The position numbers were made by a program, and so were the translations under genes. Of a DNA stretch of 32,000 nucleotides, positions 1,048 to 5,136 are shown one piece after another; within the stretch, counting starts at the first letter, position 1, and each line of letters starts with the position of its first letter. Source of the stretch: Paracoccus suum (GTDB lineage Bacteria > Pseudomonadota > Alphaproteobacteria > Rhodobacterales > Rhodobacteraceae); contig NZ_CP030918.1 in the NCBI RefSeq assembly GCF_003324675.1, forward strand, positions 330,001 through 362,000, read 5' to 3'. The notes beneath the pieces were generated by a model. The model was not told the origin of the DNA. It was given only the letters and a program-made list of their open reading frames with translations, and ran no database searches.

Positions 1048-2130
1048 ATGACCGATACCGACACCCTGCGCACCGATTGGCTGGCCCGCGTCGCCGAGGC
1101 CGCCGACGCGCCTGCGCTGGAGGCCGTGCGCCTCGCCGCCCTCGGCAAGAAGGGCGAGATCAGCGGCCTGATGAAGGAACTGGGGCGAATGACCCCCGAG
1201 GAACGGCAGTCCCGCGGCGCCGCCCTGAACCAGCTGCGTGACGAGGTCGACGCCGCCCTGCGCGCCCGCAAGCTGGGGCTGGAGGACGCCGCCCTCGACG
1301 CACGCCTGTCGGGCGAGTGGCTGGACGTGACCCTGCCCGGCCGTCCCCGCCCGCGCGGCACCATCCACCCTGTCAGCCAGGTGACCGAGGAGGTCATCGC
1401 GATCTTCGCTGACATGGGCTTCGCCGTCGCCGAGGGTCCGCAGGTCGAAAGTGACTGGTACAACTTCGACGCGCTGAACATCCCGCCCGAGCATCCCGCC
1501 CGGCAGGAGCATGACACCTTCTTCATGGCCCGCGCGGAAGGCGACAACCGCCCGCCCCACGTCCTGCGCACCCACACCAGCCCCGTCCAGATCCGCGCTT
1601 TGCAGGAGCGCGGAACGCCCGTACGCGTGATCGCCCCCGGCCGCGTCTACCGCATGGACATGGACCAGACCCACACACCGATGTTCCACCAGGTCGAGGG
1701 CATGGCCATCGATCGCGACATCTCGATGGCGCAGCTGAAATGGACGCTGGAGGAATTCTGCCGCGCCTTCTTCGAGGTGCCATCGGTCGAACTGCGCTTC
1801 CGCGCCTCGCATTTCCCCTTTACCGAGCCCTCCGCCGAGGTCGATATCCGCTGCTCATGGGAGGGCGGCCAGCTGAAACTGGGCGAGGGCGACAGCTGGC
1901 TGGAAATCCTCGGCAGCGGGATGATGCACCCGAAGGTGCTGGAGGCGGCCGGGGTTGATCCGACGCAGTGGCAGGGGTTTGCCTTCGGGATGGGCATCGA
2001 CCGGATTGCGATGCTGAAATATGGAATCCCGGATTTGCGGGCGTTTTTCGAGAGCGACCTGCGGTGGCTGCGGCATTACGGGTTTGCGGCGGGGGATGTG
2101 CCGGCGGTGAGTGGCGGGTTGAGTAGCTGA
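1048..2130 (+). CDS. pheS: Phenylalanine--tRNA ligase alpha subunit
   Basis: 360 aa. Class II aaRS motifs are present ([30 protein letters not shown]) and the C-terminus [10 protein letters not shown] is typical of alphaproteobacterial PheS. ATG verified at 1048. Confidence 0.97.
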
Positions 2131-2239
2131 TCGGCGTGCAATAGTCCGCCGTCGACGTGCGGAACGCGCACGGGTGTTTACATCTTGTTAACGGATGGGC
2201 TTTATGATTAGGAGTCGTGCTTTTGACGAGGGTGAACCG

Positions 2240-2485
2240 ATGACGCAACTTTCCAGTGCTATCCGAACGGTGGTTTTCCAGACGGAGTGTGGGACCTACG
2301 TCGCGCAATGCCTCGACCACGATATCTGTGTGCAAGCTCCTACGGAGCAGCTTCTCAAAGATCGCCTTCTTACCGTTTTACTGGCGGAAGGTGACAACTT
2401 AGCACATATTGGGGCAGCGCCAGAAGAGTTCCACAAAATGTGGGAATCACCTGAGCTTCGTCTTGAATCTTTAGCCGCTGCTTGA
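2240..2485 (+). CDS. Small protein with a HicB-N-terminal/UPF0150-like motif pattern (putative antitoxin, no DNA-binding domain)
   Basis: The ORF track gives 2195..2485. The internal ATG at 2240 is preferred because GAGGGTG lies 5 nt upstream. IRTVVFQTECGTYVAQCLDHDICVQAPTEQLLKDRLLTVLL follows the beta-beta-beta-alpha pattern of the HicB N-domain (compare YPVxLxPxxEGGYxVxFxDxPxxxTQGxT). GC is low relative to the flanks. No HTH or RHH tail is present. Confidence 0.45.
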   Translation: MTQLSSAIRTVVFQTECGTYVAQCLDHDICVQAPTEQLLKDRLLTVLLAEGDNLAHIGAAPEEFHKMWESPELRLESLAAA

Positions 2486-2491
2486 GGTCTT

Positions 2492-2737
2492 ATGTCTGCT
2501 CCCTTCGCTCCGTCGCCCAAGTTAGAGGCGTACATCGAATGGGCATTGGGACAAGGATGTCGGGTCGAGGACGGTGTGGTGGGCGTGGACCATGTGCGTC
2601 GGATCACCGCTTCGACCGGATCGAGCGTGACTCTGCCAGACTATGGACCTGAGCCCCTATGTCACCAGACGGTGGCGTACATCGACAGGCGGTTGGGATT
2701 AAACAGCCCCTTTCCGAAGACCCCAGACGAGTACTGA
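2492..2737 (+). CDS. Small protein with a HicA/YcfA-like motif order (putative mRNA-interferase toxin)
   Basis: 81 aa. The ATG at 2492 lies 6 nt after the upstream stop, with GAGG 4 nt upstream. The N-terminal helix EAYIEWALGQGCRV matches the HicA W-x-x-x-Q-G-x-x-V pattern. This is followed by a central His strand (VDHVRRI), a strand SSVTLPDY, and a C-terminal helix ending RRLGL, as in HicA ..LKQLGL. The assignment rests on motif resemblance only. Confidence 0.45.
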   Translation: MSAPFAPSPKLEAYIEWALGQGCRVEDGVVGVDHVRRITASTGSSVTLPDYGPEPLCHQTVAYIDRRLGLNSPFPKTPDEY

Positions 2738-2748
2738 GTTTATTCTGA

Positions 2749-5136
2749 ATGAAATTCACCGTCTCCTGGCTCCGTGATCATCTAGACTCCACCGCTGCGC
2801 TCTCTGAAATCACCGACGCCCTCACCGACCTCGGCCTCGAGGTCGAGGGCGTCACCGATCCCGCCGCCAAGCTCACCCCCTTCACCGTCGCGCGGATCGA
2901 GCATGCCGAGCAACATCCTGACGCCGACCGCCTCCGTGTCTGCCGCGTCATGACCGACGAGGGCGAAAAGCAGATCGTTTGCGGGGCGCCGAATGCGCGC
3001 GCCGGGATCACGGTCGTTCTAGCCAAGCCCGGCGACTATGTCCCCGGCATCGATACCACCCTCGGCATCGGCAAGATCCGCGGCGTCGAGAGCCACGGCA
3101 TGATGGCCTCTGAGCGCGAGCTGGAGCTGTCGGAGGAGCATGAGGGCATCATCGAGCTGCCCTCGGGCGAGGTCGGGCAGAAATTCGTGGACTGGCTGGC
3201 GCAGAACGCGCCCGAAAAGATCGACCCGGTGATCGAGATCAAGGTCACGCCTAACCGGCCCGACGCGCTCGGCATCCGCGGCATTGCCCGCGACCTCGCG
3301 GCGCGGGGCCTCGGCACGCTGCGGCCGGAAAAGACGTCGGCAATCGAGGGCACCTTCGACAGCCCGATAAAGGTCATCATCGATCCGGCCGTGGCCACCC
3401 AGAACCCGGTCTTTGCCGGGCGCGTCATCCGCGGCGTCACGAACGGCCCCTCGCCCGAATGGCTGCAGCGGCGGCTGAAGGCGATCGGGCTGCGGCCGAT
3501 CAGCACGCTGGTGGACATCACCAACCTCTTCACCTTCGATCTGAACCGGCCGCTGCACGTCTTTGATGCCGACAAGGTCGCGGGCGACCTGCATGTGCGC
3601 CCGGCGCGGGCGGGGGAAAGCATCCTCGCGCTCGACGACAAGACCTATGCTCTGCCCGAGGGCATGATAATCATCGCGGATGACAGCGGCCCCGAGAGCA
3701 TCGCCGGGATCATGGGCGGCGCAGCCTCGGGCGTGTCAGCCGACACGGTGAACGTGTTCCTGGAAAGCGCCTATTGGGACCCTATCACCATTGCCGCCAA
3801 CGGTCGCCGGCTGAAGATCAACAGCGATGCCCGCTATCGGTTCGAGCGCGGGGTTGATCCGGCCTTCACCATTCCGGGACTCGATCTGGCGACGCAGATG
3901 ATCCTCGATCTGTGCGGCGGCACGGCCTCGCATGCCGTGACCGCTGGCGCGCTGCCGGACACCGCGCGTGCCTACCGGCTCGACCCGGCACGGACCCAGC
4001 GACTGGTGGGGATGGACATCCCGGAGGCCGATCAGCGCCGCACGCTGGAGGCGCTGGGCTTTCGCATGGACGGCGACATGGCGCAGGTGCCGAGCTGGCG
4101 CCCCGACGTTCAGGGCGAGGCTGACCTGGTCGAGGAAATCGCGCGCATCGCGAGCTTGACCCGCCTCAAGGGCGTGCCGTTGCCGCGTCCGGCGCCCGGC
4201 GTTCCGGCCCCGGTCCTGACCGCGCAGCAGCAGCGCGAGGGCGCGGCCCGGCGCATGGCGGCAGCGCTCGGCTATAACGAATGCGTCAGCTATAGCTTCA
4301 TCGACGGCGCCGCGGCCGCCCTGTTCGGTGGCGGCAGCGAGGCCGTGCGGCTGGAAAACCCGATCAGCAGCGAGATGACGCATCTGCGGCCCGACCTGCT
4401 GCCCGGCCTCCTCGCGGCGGCGGCGCGCAACCAGGCGCGCGGGTTCATGGACCTCGCCCTGTTCGAGCTTGGCCCGGTCTTTGCCGGCGGCGAGCCGGGC
4501 GAGCAGGCCGTGCATCTGACCGGGCTGCTGGTTGGCGCGGCGGCGCCGCGCGATCCCTACAACTCGCAGCGGCCGGTGGATGTCTATGACGCCAAGGCCG
4601 ATGTCGAGGCGATCCTGTCGACCATCGGCGCGCCCGCGCGCACCCAGATCGACCGCCGCCTCGACGGCTGGTGGCATCCGGGCCGCGCCGGCAACATGGG
4701 TCTGGGCAAGACCCGCCTCGCCAGCTTTGGCGAGGTTCATCCGCGCGTTGTGAAGGCGATGGGGATCAAGGGTCCCGCGGTCGCCTTTACCATCCACATC
4801 GCCAATGTGCCGCTGCCCAAGACCAAAACCCCGACCCGGCCGCCGCTGGCGAGTTCGGACCTTCAGGCGGTCGAGCGGGACTTCGCCTTCGTGGTCGACC
4901 CGCAAGTCGAGGCACTGGCGATCGTCAATGCCGCCCAGGGCGCGGACAAGGCGCTGATCGAAAGCGTGCGGGTGTTCGACCAGTTCACCGGCCTCGCGGA
5001 CGGGCGCAAGTCGGTCGCGATCACCGCGCGCCTTCAGCCGCGCGACAAGACACTGACCGAGGCCGAGATCGAGGCGGTGGCCGCGAAGATCGTCGAAAAG
5101 GTCGCCAAGGCCACGGGTGGCGCGCTGCGGTCATAG
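2749..5136 (+). CDS. pheT: Phenylalanine--tRNA ligase beta subunit
   Basis: 795 aa. It has the N-terminal MKFTxSWLRDHLD and tRNA-binding domain, B3/4 and B5 domains, and the C-terminal FDQFTG...SVAITARLQP anticodon-binding-like FDX-ACB domain. The ATG at 2749 lies 11 nt after the upstream ORF stop. Confidence 0.97.
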   Translation: MKFTVSWLRDHLDSTAALSEITDALTDLGLEVEGVTDPAAKLTPFTVARIEHAEQHPDADRLRVCRVMTDEGEKQIVCGAPNARAGITVVLAKPGDYVPGIDTTLGIGKIRGVESHGMMASERELELSEEHEGIIELPSGEVGQKFVDWLAQNAPEKIDPVIEIKVTPNRPDALGIRGIARDLAARGLGTLRPEKTSAIEGTFDSPIKVIIDPAVATQNPVFAGRVIRGVTNGPSPEWLQRRLKAIGLRPISTLVDITNLFTFDLNRPLHVFDADKVAGDLHVRPARAGESILALDDKTYALPEGMIIIADDSGPESIAGIMGGAASGVSADTVNVFLESAYWDPITIAANGRRLKINSDARYRFERGVDPAFTIPGLDLATQMILDLCGGTASHAVTAGALPDTARAYRLDPARTQRLVGMDIPEADQRRTLEALGFRMDGDMAQVPSWRPDVQGEADLVEEIARIASLTRLKGVPLPRPAPGVPAPVLTAQQQREGAARRMAAALGYNECVSYSFIDGAAAALFGGGSEAVRLENPISSEMTHLRPDLLPGLLAAAARNQARGFMDLALFELGPVFAGGEPGEQAVHLTGLLVGAAAPRDPYNSQRPVDVYDAKADVEAILSTIGAPARTQIDRRLDGWWHPGRAGNMGLGKTRLASFGEVHPRVVKAMGIKGPAVAFTIHIANVPLPKTKTPTRPPLASSDLQAVERDFAFVVDPQVEALAIVNAAQGADKALIESVRVFDQFTGLADGRKSVAITARLQPRDKTLTEAEIEAVAAKIVEKVAKATGGALRS

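What the first reader, a model, noticed from the sequence alone, without database searches (positions are those of the whole stretch)
2131..2748. HicB/HicA-like two-gene cassette inserted inside the essential pheS-pheT operon
**Position.**
- pheS and pheT are normally adjacent. Here they are separated by 618 nt carrying two small co-oriented ORFs (2240..2485 and 2492..2737).
- Spacing is tight: 6 nt between the two ORFs and 11 nt to the pheT ATG. pheT must therefore be transcribed through the cassette.

**Composition.**
- My hand count of lines 2161-2760 gives about 54% G+C, against clearly higher GC in pheS and pheT. This points to horizontal acquisition.

**ORF 1.**
- It shows the beta-beta-beta-alpha pattern of the HicB N-terminal domain (VVFQTECGTYVAQCLDHDICVQAPTEQLL...).
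- It lacks any HTH or RHH DNA-binding tail.

**ORF 2.**
- It mirrors the HicA motif order: W-x-x-x-QG-x-x-V helix, a His-containing strand VDH, an ..LP.. strand, and a C-terminal ..LGL.

**Gene order and nearby structure.**
- Gene order is antitoxin-like then toxin-like, the reverse of the classical hicA-hicB order.
- A 6-bp GC hairpin (cgtgcg/cgcacg, 2156-2172) lies just after the pheS stop. It could modulate read-through.

**Why it matters.**
- A TA-like module riding in an aminoacyl-tRNA synthetase operon would be unusual.
- It could couple PheRS subunit stoichiometry to toxin/antitoxin expression.
Basis: partly seen in the sequence, partly recalled or inferred. Interest (0 to 1): 0.65.

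Follow-up and report, generated by a model that had tools for sequence, protein, structure and literature searches.

The report
Divergent HicB/HicA-like cassette between pheS and pheT
Two small foreign genes between pheS and pheT form a mobile, unnamed gene pair distantly related to the compact "hicBA" toxin-antitoxin type, and their position is ordinary because this gap holds different foreign genes in most related bacteria.

Summary
The sequence facts are correct. pheS ends at 2130 and pheT starts at 2749. Between them lie two co-oriented 81-aa ORFs (2240-2485 and 2492-2737) with good ribosome-binding sites, in the lowest-GC stretch of the window (0.549 against 0.668).

Both ORFs are real genes. 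They belong to unnamed families (158+ and 215+ members) that are adjacent in every context examined, are fused into one protein in one lineage, and carry their own conserved upstream DNA element.

ORF1 has the HicB N-terminal fold and no DNA-binding domain. [quoted passage not shown] It fails Pfam HicA_toxin, and its family lacks the catalytic histidine.

The gene order and the small HicB without a DNA-binding domain match the published, untested "Class 2 hicBA" layout.

The location is not special. In 80 related genomes pheS and pheT are close together in only 4. The gap elsewhere holds unrelated, often low-GC genes, and none of the 80 has this cassette. Nothing links the cassette to PheRS function.

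Verdict: a horizontally acquired, divergent hicBA-like module in a variable gene slot. Interest is modest.

The parts
1048..2130 (+). pheS (PheRS alpha subunit), left flank of the slot
   Evidence: 360-aa ORF. It is 74-87% identical to PheS of Paracoccus and other Paracoccaceae. G-ending codons dominate its last ~270 nt.
2131..2184 (+). Non-coding left junction, including the 6-bp hairpin at 2156-2172
   Evidence: It has no nucleotide similarity to relatives' spacers or to cassette loci. The hairpin is at chance level (one per 237 nt) and is not terminator-like. No Rfam family matches.
2185..2208 (+). Conserved cassette-borne upstream element, TTGTTA-N12-TATGAT (promoter- or operator-like)
   Evidence: TTGnnA-N12-TATGnT lies 49-56 nt upstream of the ORF1-like ATG in 9 of 11 independent loci, against a background of 0.01 per 120 nt. 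The 12-nt spacer is not canonical for sigma-70, and the consensus scan found nothing. Its function is inferred.
2228..2234 (+). Shine-Dalgarno site of ORF1 (GAGGGTG)
   Evidence: Read directly from the sequence.
2240..2485 (+). ORF1: 81-aa HicB-like protein (partial RNase-H fold) with no DNA-binding domain; putative antitoxin or partner
   Evidence: The family has 158 members. The profile hits 2yzt at E=1.4e-4, and the 2yzt fragment hits Pfam HicB_lk_antitox at E=0.0044. The AF2 model has pLDDT 79 and E-E-E-H-H-E topology. The top Foldseek PDB hits are HicB N-domains 6g1c, 6g26, 6g1n and 3k6q, and 2yzt scores probability 0.95.
2484..2487 (+). Shine-Dalgarno site of ORF2 (GAGG), overlapping the ORF1 stop codon
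   Evidence: Read directly from the sequence. The 6-nt gap suggests translational coupling, which is inferred.
2492..2737 (+). ORF2: 81-aa alpha-beta-beta-beta-alpha protein; a distant HicA-fold relative without a conserved catalytic His; putative toxin or effector
   Evidence: The family has 215 representative clusters. The AF2 model has pLDDT 85 and H-E-E-E-H topology. The best TM match in BFVD is a 'HICA protein' (TM 0.63/0.69, rmsd 2.6 A). hhalign against a diverse HicA profile gives 75.7% over 57 columns, and 0 of 100 shuffles reach its score. There is no Pfam HicA hit and no conserved His.
2749..5136 (+). pheT (PheRS beta subunit), right flank; starts 11 nt after the ORF2 stop
   Evidence: 795-aa ORF. 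No terminator or consensus promoter lies between pheS and pheT, so read-through from pheS and/or the cassette's own element is inferred.

Best explanation
The 618-nt spacer holds a self-contained mobile module that was acquired horizontally into a variable gene slot between pheS and pheT. The module consists of its own upstream promoter- or operator-like element (2185-2208), ORF1 and ORF2.

ORF1 is a small HicB-fold protein with no DNA-binding domain. [quoted passage not shown] The layout matches the compact 'Class 2 hicBA' toxin-antitoxin architecture.

Inferred mechanism: ORF2 is the effector, most likely an RNA-binding or RNA-targeting growth inhibitor. ORF1 binds it, helix against beta-sheet as in HicAB complexes, and neutralises it. 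Because the family lacks the canonical catalytic histidine, ORF2 must act without HicA's His-dependent RNase chemistry or through other residues. The conserved candidates are E54, D65-R66-R67 and the invariant Pro-rich tails.

In this genome the pair is transcribed in the same direction as pheS and pheT, and pheT is most likely expressed by read-through. The position reflects where foreign genes are tolerated in this clade, not a functional link to PheRS.

Shown: the genes are real, the pairing is obligate, the fusion exists, ORF1 has the HicB fold, the composition is foreign, and the slot is variable.
Inferred: the toxin/antitoxin roles, complex formation, the promoter function of the upstream element, and co-transcription with pheT.
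For: - The ORFs, spacing, ribosome-binding sites and low GC are confirmed.
- An ORF1-like and an ORF2-like gene lie adjacent, 13-18 nt apart, in every neighbourhood examined (L001-L011, L254-L257).
- A natural ORF1-ORF2 fusion protein, P0286, matches both families (hhalign 99.4% and 99.1%) and occurs in two independent metagenomes.
- ORF1 has the HicB fold.
- ORF2 has the HicA-like fold and a remote profile similarity that beats all controls.
- A conserved upstream element travels with the cassette.
- Mobility: IS1595-family transposases adjoin the cassette in five or more neighbourhoods. PIN_10 and restriction-modification genes are also neighbours, and the cassette is lower in GC than its host in all seven loci measured.
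- In L252/L253 the ORF2-like gene is split by IS66 while the ORF1-like gene is intact. This is the expected pattern if ORF2 is the harmful partner, but it is a single case.
- The architecture matches the Class 2 hicBA layout described in PMC10865869.
- None of 80 related genomes has the cassette, and their pheS-pheT gaps hold unrelated genes.
Against: - Neither ORF hits Pfam, NCBIfam, PADLOC or PHROGs above noise.
- 0 of 127 ORF2 relatives hit HicA_toxin.
- Foldseek against the PDB gave no HicA among the 50 matches listed (best E=0.5), and the ORF2 profile finds no HicA chain in the PDB.
- The hhalign probability is only 69-76%.
- The His required for HicA toxicity and RNase activity (PMC11594946) is not conserved.
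- The Foldseek E-values for ORF1 (0.16-1.2) and for the phage HicA match (0.15) are not significant on their own.
- No toxicity, binding or expression data exist, and Class 1 and 2 hicBA modules are themselves untested.
- The cassette is absent from 72,556 plasmids, 50,697 phage genomes and the IMG/VR viral contigs.
Confidence: 0.55

Rival explanations
1. ORF1 and ORF2 are a real mobile HicB-fold/HicA-fold pair but not a toxin-antitoxin system. Having lost the catalytic histidine, ORF2 would be a non-toxic RNA- or protein-binding adaptor, and the pair would serve another role such as regulation, anti-defence or an IS-associated accessory function.
For: The canonical His is not conserved. There are no hits to TA or defence models. 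The ORF2 tails (MSAPFAPSPK and SPFPKTP) are strongly conserved and predicted to be unstructured, which suggests a binding function. The cassette recurs next to IS1595 transposases and DUF6471 genes. ORF1 has no DNA-binding domain, so the usual TA autoregulation is missing.
Against: Obligate pairing, tight spacing, small size, low GC, scattered distribution, TA and restriction-modification neighbours, and IS disruption of ORF2 only are all typical of TA modules. Class 1 and 2 hicBA modules also lack a DNA-binding domain.
Confidence: 0.25
2. ORF1 is a HicB-like antitoxin, but ORF2 is an unrelated new toxin family that shares only the common alpha-beta-beta-beta-alpha topology with HicA. This would be a case of partner swapping among antitoxin domains.
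For: No HicA hit from Pfam, from the PDB profile search, or among the listed Foldseek PDB matches. The only sequence signal is a 69-76% hhalign probability. Small alpha/beta folds can arise by convergence.
Against: The hhalign alignment is collinear over 57 columns, from helix alpha1 to the C-terminal LGL motif, and beats 100 of 100 shuffles and two unrelated-profile controls. The best TM-score match in the viral library is a HicA-annotated protein. The partner has the HicB fold.
Confidence: 0.12
3. The cassette is functionally tied to PheRS. It would tune the pheS:pheT expression ratio or respond to Phe-tRNA charging.
For: The cassette lies between pheS and pheT with only 11 nt before the pheT ATG and no terminator, so its transcription and translation must affect pheT expression in this strain.
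Against: None of the other cassette loci examined is near pheS or pheT. None of 80 related genomes has it at pheS-pheT. Those gaps hold unrelated cargo, including DUF2513, cupin, GNAT, YrhK, ASCH and LamB proteins, transporters and ORFans. The hairpin is at chance level.
Confidence: 0.04
4. The ORFs are chance open frames in a non-coding spacer.
For: There are no database family hits. The window's own ORF2 was not listed among the protein-database hits, so it may be unannotated in the source genome.
Against: Both ORFs belong to families of more than 150 members with conserved motifs. Both have ribosome-binding sites, confident AF2 folds, conserved synteny and a natural fusion.
Confidence: 0.01

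Closest known systems
Class 2 hicBA modules (Gerdes, mBio 2024, PMC10865869)
   Same: hicB comes first. HicB is small (63-103 codons) with a partial RNase-H fold and no DNA-binding domain. [quoted passage not shown] The genes are tightly linked, and fused versions exist (Classes 11-13). The window has 81 aa plus 81 aa, a 6-nt gap, and a fused relative, P0286.
   Different: ORF2 and 127 relatives do not hit Pfam HicA_toxin, and the catalytic His is not conserved. ORF2 has invariant Pro-rich N- and C-terminal tails that are not a HicA feature. Class 2 itself has not been tested experimentally.
Canonical HicAB type II toxin-antitoxin systems (E. coli 6HPB, B. pseudomallei 6G26, Y. pestis HicAB3)
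   Same: ORF1's top structural matches are the HicB N-terminal domains of 6g1c, 6g26 and 6g1n. ORF2 aligns collinearly with HicA: helix alpha1 with a conserved Trp, the Gly at the end of beta1, E-x-L, and the C-terminal LGL.
   Different: The gene order is reversed. There is no HTH or RHH domain on the antitoxin. There is no conserved catalytic His, and no sequence-level family membership for ORF2.
Stand-alone UPF0150/DUF1902-type HicB-like proteins (T. thermophilus TTHA1756, PDB 2yzt)
   Same: This is the best sequence-profile match for ORF1 (E=1.4e-4) and superposes at rmsd 1.1 A over 47 residues. Both are small single-domain proteins.
   Different: ORF1 has an extra C-terminal helix and strand with the conserved AP-x-x-FH-x-MW motif, and a conserved AQC-x-x-x-DIC-x-QA motif not seen in 2yzt.
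Core-gene-flanked hotspots for horizontally acquired genes (for example P. aeruginosa cDHS1, next to pheS/pheT/rplT/ihfA; PMC10250203)
   Same: Conserved essential genes flank a low-GC, highly variable set of accessory genes.
   Different: cDHS1 lies downstream of the whole pheST-ihfA-merR-tRNA-Pro cluster, spans 1-224 kb and is rich in defence systems. Here the variable slot is between pheS and pheT, usually holds one or two small genes, and none of the ten occupants tested matched a PADLOC defence model.

Membership tests
HicB antitoxin superfamily (partial RNase-H fold; Pfam HicB_lk_antitox / UPF0150 / DUF1902) | N-terminal beta-beta-beta-alpha-beta partial RNase-H fold | tested here: met
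   The AF2 model gives E8-14, E20-24, E30-33, H36-56, (H62-67), E74-78. The top Foldseek PDB hits are HicB N-domains and 2yzt, with probabilities of 0.41-0.95 but E-values of 0.16-1.2.
HicB antitoxin superfamily (partial RNase-H fold; Pfam HicB_lk_antitox / UPF0150 / DUF1902) | Significant sequence or profile match to a family member or model | tested here: inconclusive
   The 116-sequence profile hits 2yzt at E=1.4e-4. A 2yzt fragment hits HicB_lk_antitox only at E=0.0044, below the curated cut-off. ORF1 itself has no Pfam hit, and 7 of 116 relatives hit DUF1902 weakly.
HicB antitoxin superfamily (partial RNase-H fold; Pfam HicB_lk_antitox / UPF0150 / DUF1902) | Encoded next to a HicA-type partner and neutralises it | not testable with these tools
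   Adjacency to the ORF2 family holds in every locus examined, and a fusion exists. Binding and neutralisation need experiments or multimer modelling.
HicA toxin family (Pfam PF07927, COG1724) | Match to the HicA_toxin profile | tested here: not met
   ORF2 has no hit. 0 of 127 family members hit at E<=1. E. coli HicA, as positive control, hits at 3e-7.
HicA toxin family (Pfam PF07927, COG1724) | [quoted passage not shown] | tested here: inconclusive
   The topology is met (H11-20, E24-30, E33-39, E45-49, H58-68). The best TM match in BFVD is a 'HICA protein' (TM 0.63/0.69, E=0.15). No HicA appears among the 50 Foldseek PDB matches listed.
HicA toxin family (Pfam PF07927, COG1724) | Conserved catalytic His (with the preceding Gly) in the beta1-beta2 region, required for toxicity and RNase activity (PMC11594946) | tested here: not met
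   The Gly is conserved (G28 in 96 of 127). Only 32 of 127 have any His in the segment and 13 of 127 have G-x-x-H. The window's H34 is unique among 21 close homologues. In the hhalign alignments the HicA His falls in a gap.
HicA toxin family (Pfam PF07927, COG1724) | Remote homology by profile-profile comparison | tested here: inconclusive
   hhalign gives 69-76% probability and P=2.4e-5 over 57 collinear columns. 0 of 300 column shuffles reach the real score, and unrelated-profile controls score 14-17 against 28.6. The HicA profile was shallow (Neff 2.7).
Class 2 hicBA architecture (PMC10865869) | hicB first, small and without a DNA-binding domain; small hicA immediately downstream | tested here: met
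   81 aa plus 81 aa with a 6-nt gap. The ORF1 model has no HTH or RHH element.
Type II toxin-antitoxin system (general) | Toxicity of one partner, neutralised by direct binding of the other | not testable with these tools
   Only indirect hints are available: IS66 disrupts ORF2-like but not ORF1-like in L252/L253, the distribution is that of a mobile element, and the GC is low.

The most novel reading that the evidence does not exclude
The ORF2 family is a HicA-derived protein that has given up the histidine-dependent RNase mechanism. It would act instead through its invariant Pro-rich N- and C-terminal tails and the DRRLG motif, for example by non-catalytic binding of RNA, the ribosome or a host factor. 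That would define a new functional class of hicBA-like modules.

Separately, the pheS-pheT spacer of Paracoccaceae may be an operon-embedded hypervariable slot. Foreign genes, often overlapping the pheS stop codon in an ATGA junction, would gain guaranteed expression by sitting between two essential genes.
Probability: 0.2. Interest if true: 0.6.

Novelty: new variant of a known kind. Interest (0 to 1): 0.33.

Why it matters
If confirmed, this pair would add an unannotated branch, restricted mainly to Rhodobacterales, to the HicAB superfamily. It has roughly 150-200 sequence clusters per partner.

Its toxin-like partner lacks the histidine thought to be essential for HicA. It would therefore be a natural test of whether the HicA fold can inhibit growth without RNase catalysis. 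It also bears on how compact hicBA modules with no DNA-binding domain are regulated, and the conserved TTGnnA-N12-TATGnT element is a concrete candidate for that regulation.

The more general point is that pheS and pheT, usually assumed to be an inseparable operon, are separated by variable foreign cargo in most Paracoccaceae. That matters for operon prediction and for where accessory genes are expected. Neither point is a major surprise, since TA modules and core-gene-flanked hotspots are both common.

Tried and rejected
- **Direct family scans.** Pfam, NCBIfam, PADLOC and PHROGs gave nothing for either ORF.
- **Word-indexed search with ORF1 alone.** It found only the window's own protein. 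The family appeared only after seeding with the genes upstream of ORF2 homologues.
- **Source contig look-up.** The exact look-up of ORF1 found nothing on record, so the organism is known only as a Paracoccus-like member of the Paracoccaceae (PheS at most 87% identical).
- **ORF2 against solved structures.** Foldseek against the PDB gave only noise. The ORF2 profiles against PDB sequences gave only sub-threshold hits to a metallo-beta-lactamase N-terminus and to ribosomal protein bS6, which I rejected as chance.
- **Broadening the HicA profile.** A second alignment-driven viral scan returned the same narrow set. I used verified PDB seeds instead.
- **Viral scans for the cassette.** The scan with alignment A4 failed for lack of a conserved stretch. 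The scan with A2 found no relatives.
- **Plasmid and phage collections.** tblastn found no match.
- **Insertion scars.** No convincing flanking direct or inverted repeats were found.
- **Imported pheS and pheT ends.** Third-position G/C usage flips at both edges of the slot, but segment identity to relatives shows no foreign tract, so this is inconclusive.
- **RNA elements.** No Rfam family matches. The hairpin is at chance level. The leader fold has z=-1.8, which is not significant.
- **Defence-hotspot idea.** Ten slot occupants gave no PADLOC hits.
Full report
**1. Observation**

The coordinates are accurate. pheS is 1048-2130, ORF1 2240-2485 (81 aa), ORF2 2492-2737 (81 aa) and pheT 2749-5136, all on the + strand. 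The gaps are 109, 6 and 11 nt.

pheS has 0.679, pheT 0.686 and the window 0.668. The spacer is the lowest-GC 618-nt stretch in the 32 kb, about 3 SD below the mean. Third-position GC is about 0.49 for ORF1 and 0.68 for ORF2, against 0.87 for pheT.

Both ORFs have Shine-Dalgarno sites: GAGGGTG at 2228-2234, and GAGG at 2484-2487 overlapping the ORF1 stop. No consensus sigma-70 promoter or intrinsic terminator was found between 1900 and 2900, and no Rfam family matches there.

The hairpin at 2156-2172 exists. However, perfect 6-bp hairpins occur about once per 237 nt in this GC-rich window, it has no U-tract, and the leader folds no better than 8 of 200 shuffles. It is not evidence of anything.

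**2. Are the ORFs real genes?**

Yes. ORF2 has about 20 close homologues (44-59% identity) and 215 representative clusters in an exhaustive profile search, nearly all 76-103 aa.

ORF1 alone found only itself in the word-indexed search. However, the gene immediately upstream of every ORF2 homologue examined is 35-44% identical to ORF1. Searching with that alignment recovered 158 family members.

The ORF1 motifs are AQC-x-x-x-DIC-x-QA and AP-x-x-FH-x-MW. The ORF2 motifs are MSAPFAPSPK at the N-terminus, W17, G-C, E54-x-L and DRRLG-x-x-SPF(PKTP) at the C-terminus. All public names are 'hypothetical protein', apart from one JGI record that calls an ORF1 relative an 'RNase H-like HicB family nuclease'.

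**3. The pair is an obligate, mobile unit**

In every neighbourhood examined, the ORF1-like gene is followed 13-18 nt later by the ORF2-like gene. This includes L256, where the gene caller missed ORF2.

The neighbours differ from locus to locus:
- type ISP restriction-modification, AAA, transposase and HNH genes (L001);
- ftsK (L002);
- DUF1489 (L003);
- PIN_10, DUF433 and an IS1595 transposase (L004-L007);
- an IS1595 transposase and DUF6471 (L008-L011, L256, L257);
- ordinary chromosomal genes (L254, L255).

None of these loci is near pheS or pheT. The cassette is lower in GC than its host in all seven loci measured.

A 202-aa protein, P0286, is a natural fusion. Residues 3-79 match the ORF1 family (hhalign 99.4%) and residues 108-191 match the ORF2 family (99.1%). 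It occurs in two independent metagenomes.

In L252/L253 the ORF2-like gene is split at about codon 15 by IS66 insertions, while the ORF1-like gene is intact.

The motif TTGnnA-N12-TATGnT lies 49-56 nt upstream of the ORF1-like ATG in 9 of 11 independent loci. The window's copy is TTGTTA at 2185-2190 and TATGAT at 2203-2208. The background rate is 0.01 per 120 nt. So the module carries its own regulatory or promoter-like element. This also excludes the alternative ORF1 start at 2195.

The cassette was not found on 72,556 plasmids, in 50,697 phage genomes or in the IMG/VR viral contigs.

**4. What the proteins are**

*ORF1.* The AF2 model (pLDDT 79) is beta-beta-beta-alpha-(alpha)-beta. The 116-sequence profile hits PDB 2yzt (TTHA1756) at E=1.4e-4. 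A 2yzt fragment weakly hits Pfam HicB_lk_antitox and DUF1902. The top Foldseek PDB matches are HicB N-terminal domains (6g1c, 6g26, 6g1n, 3k6q), and 2yzt scores probability 0.95 with rmsd 1.1 A, although the E-values are only 0.16-1.2. I accept ORF1 as a HicB-fold protein with no DNA-binding domain.

*ORF2.* The AF2 model (pLDDT 85) is alpha-beta-beta-beta-alpha, which is the HicA/dsRBD element order.

Evidence against membership in the HicA family:
- There is no Pfam HicA_toxin hit for ORF2 or for any of 127 relatives. E. coli HicA, as control, hits at 3e-7.
- The profile searches against the PDB find no HicA.
- Foldseek against the PDB lists only noise.
- The catalytic His that is essential in characterised HicAs (PMC11594946) is not conserved. 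Only 32 of 127 members have any His in the beta1-beta2 segment, and the window's 'GVDH' is unique among 21 close homologues.

Evidence for a distant relationship:
- The best geometric match in the viral structure library is a protein annotated 'HICA protein' (TM 0.63/0.69, rmsd 2.6 A over 68 columns, probability 0.99, E=0.15).
- hhalign against E. coli HicA gives 69-71% over helix alpha1 and strand beta1.
- hhalign against a more diverse HicA profile, built from verified PDB seeds (6hpb, 1whz, 6g26, 9svk), gives 75.7%, P=2.4e-5 and 57 collinear columns from alpha1 to the C-terminal LGL.
- No column shuffle reaches the real score: 0 of 200 against the narrow profile and 0 of 100 against the diverse profile, where shuffles reached at most 16.1 against 28.6.
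- Unrelated-profile controls scored 14-17.

I conclude that ORF2 is probably (about 70%) a very divergent HicA-superfamily protein that lacks the canonical active-site His. It is not a member of the family as currently defined.

**5. Comparison with what is known**

Gerdes (mBio 2024, PMC10865869) defines Class 2 hicBA modules. hicB comes first, is small (63-103 codons) and has no DNA-binding domain. hicA is small, and the two genes are tightly linked. These modules are common but experimentally untested, and fused HicA/HicB classes exist.

The window's cassette has exactly this layout.

**6. The location**

The closest PheS relatives are Paracoccus species (at most 87% identical). Among 80 Paracoccaceae/Rhodobacterales genomes:
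- pheT was found within 3.5 kb downstream of pheS in 46, and only 4 of those have a gap of 106 nt or less. The rest range from 301 to 3,358 nt.
- 27 more have a full 3.5 kb of downstream sequence without reaching pheT.
- None has the ORF1/ORF2 cassette.

The gaps are usually lower in GC than their flanks. They hold unrelated genes, many starting at an ATGA overlap with the pheS stop and ending at the pheT start. These include ORFans with transmembrane helices, DUF2513, cupin, GNAT, GATase, YrhK, ASCH, DUF4760, a LamB porin and transporters. None of ten occupants tested matched a PADLOC defence model.

So this spacer is a general variable slot in the clade, and the window's cassette is one occupant among many. 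The P. aeruginosa hotspot cDHS1 is next to the pheST cluster but lies downstream of it, so it is a different site (PMC10250203).

**7. Mechanism**

*Best explanation (confidence 0.55).* This is a horizontally acquired, self-contained hicBA-like module. ORF2 is the effector and ORF1 is its binding partner and neutraliser. The module sits in a tolerated slot and is transcribed co-directionally, so that pheT is read through it. The toxin and antitoxin roles, complex formation and promoter function are all inferred.

*Rivals.*
- A non-toxic HicB/HicA-fold pair (0.25).
- A HicB-like antitoxin paired with an unrelated new toxin (0.12).
- A functional link to PheRS (0.04).
- Chance ORFs (0.01).

**8. 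Verdict**

The novelty rating is 'new variant of a known kind': an unnamed hicBA-like family whose HicA-like partner lacks the conserved histidine. The positional oddity that motivated the finding disappears once relatives are compared. Interest is 0.33.

Noticed in passing
window 2131-2748; loci L012-L091 (region after the pheS match): In Paracoccaceae the pheS-pheT spacer is a hypervariable gene slot. Only 4 of 46 resolved relatives have a gap of 106 nt or less, the others range from 301 to 3,358 nt, and 27 more exceed 3.5 kb. The occupants are unrelated, often low in GC, and often start at an ATGA overlap with the pheS stop and end at the pheT start (for example L012 169 aa, L054 229 aa, L049 135 aa, and the DUF2513 proteins in L044 and L069).
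   Followed up: partly
L048 1441-1754, L058 4583-4968, L068, L055, L051, L056, L077, L024, L032, L021 (pheS-pheT spacers): The spacers of Tabrizicola, Cypionkella, Rhodobacter and related genomes share a small conserved minus-strand ORF (M-D-P-M-F/L-x-I-P-K... followed by a transmembrane helix). They also share a conserved palindrome, CGTTTCC...GGAAACC, followed by GCTTCCCCTT...TGCGCTA just upstream of pheT. This may be a regulatory region belonging to pheT itself. The palindrome is absent from the window.
   Followed up: partly
L004-L011, L256, L257, L252 (flanks of the cassette homologues): An IS1595-family transposase gene, often with a DUF6471 gene, lies next to the cassette in at least five different neighbourhoods. 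The cassette may travel as a passenger of, or alongside, IS1595-type elements. No transposase flanks the window's copy.
   Followed up: partly
L252 4285-4329 and 5920-6141; L253 4285-4329 and 7529-7750: The ORF2-like gene is split at about codon 15 by one (L252) or two (L253) IS66 insertions, while the upstream ORF1-like gene stays intact. This is the expected pattern if ORF2 is the harmful partner, but it comes from a single sample (ERZ18545485).
   Followed up: yes
L259 3001-3609; L260 2687-3295 (protein P0286): A natural single-polypeptide fusion of an ORF1-like domain (residues 3-79) and an ORF2-like domain (residues 108-191). It occurs in two independent metagenomes in the same gene context.
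   Followed up: yes
window 1860-2130 and 2749-3100: Third-position base usage flips at the edges of the slot. G-ending codons dominate the last ~270 nt of pheS (G3 0.5-0.63, C3 0.17-0.3), and C-ending codons dominate the first ~350 nt of pheT (C3 0.6-0.8, G3 0.1-0.2). This could mark recombination tracts imported with the cassette, but segment identity to relatives shows no clear foreign tract.
   Followed up: partly
window 2492-2737: The window's own ORF2 protein was not listed among the protein-database hits, whereas ORF1 (P0001) was. ORF2 may therefore be unannotated in the source genome's gene calls.
   Followed up: no
alignment A4 (ORF2 family), column of window residue 8: The most His-rich column in the ORF2 family (49% His, in P-F-G-x-H-P) lies in the conserved N-terminal tail, not at the HicA catalytic position. 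The window and its close relatives have Ser there.
   Followed up: no
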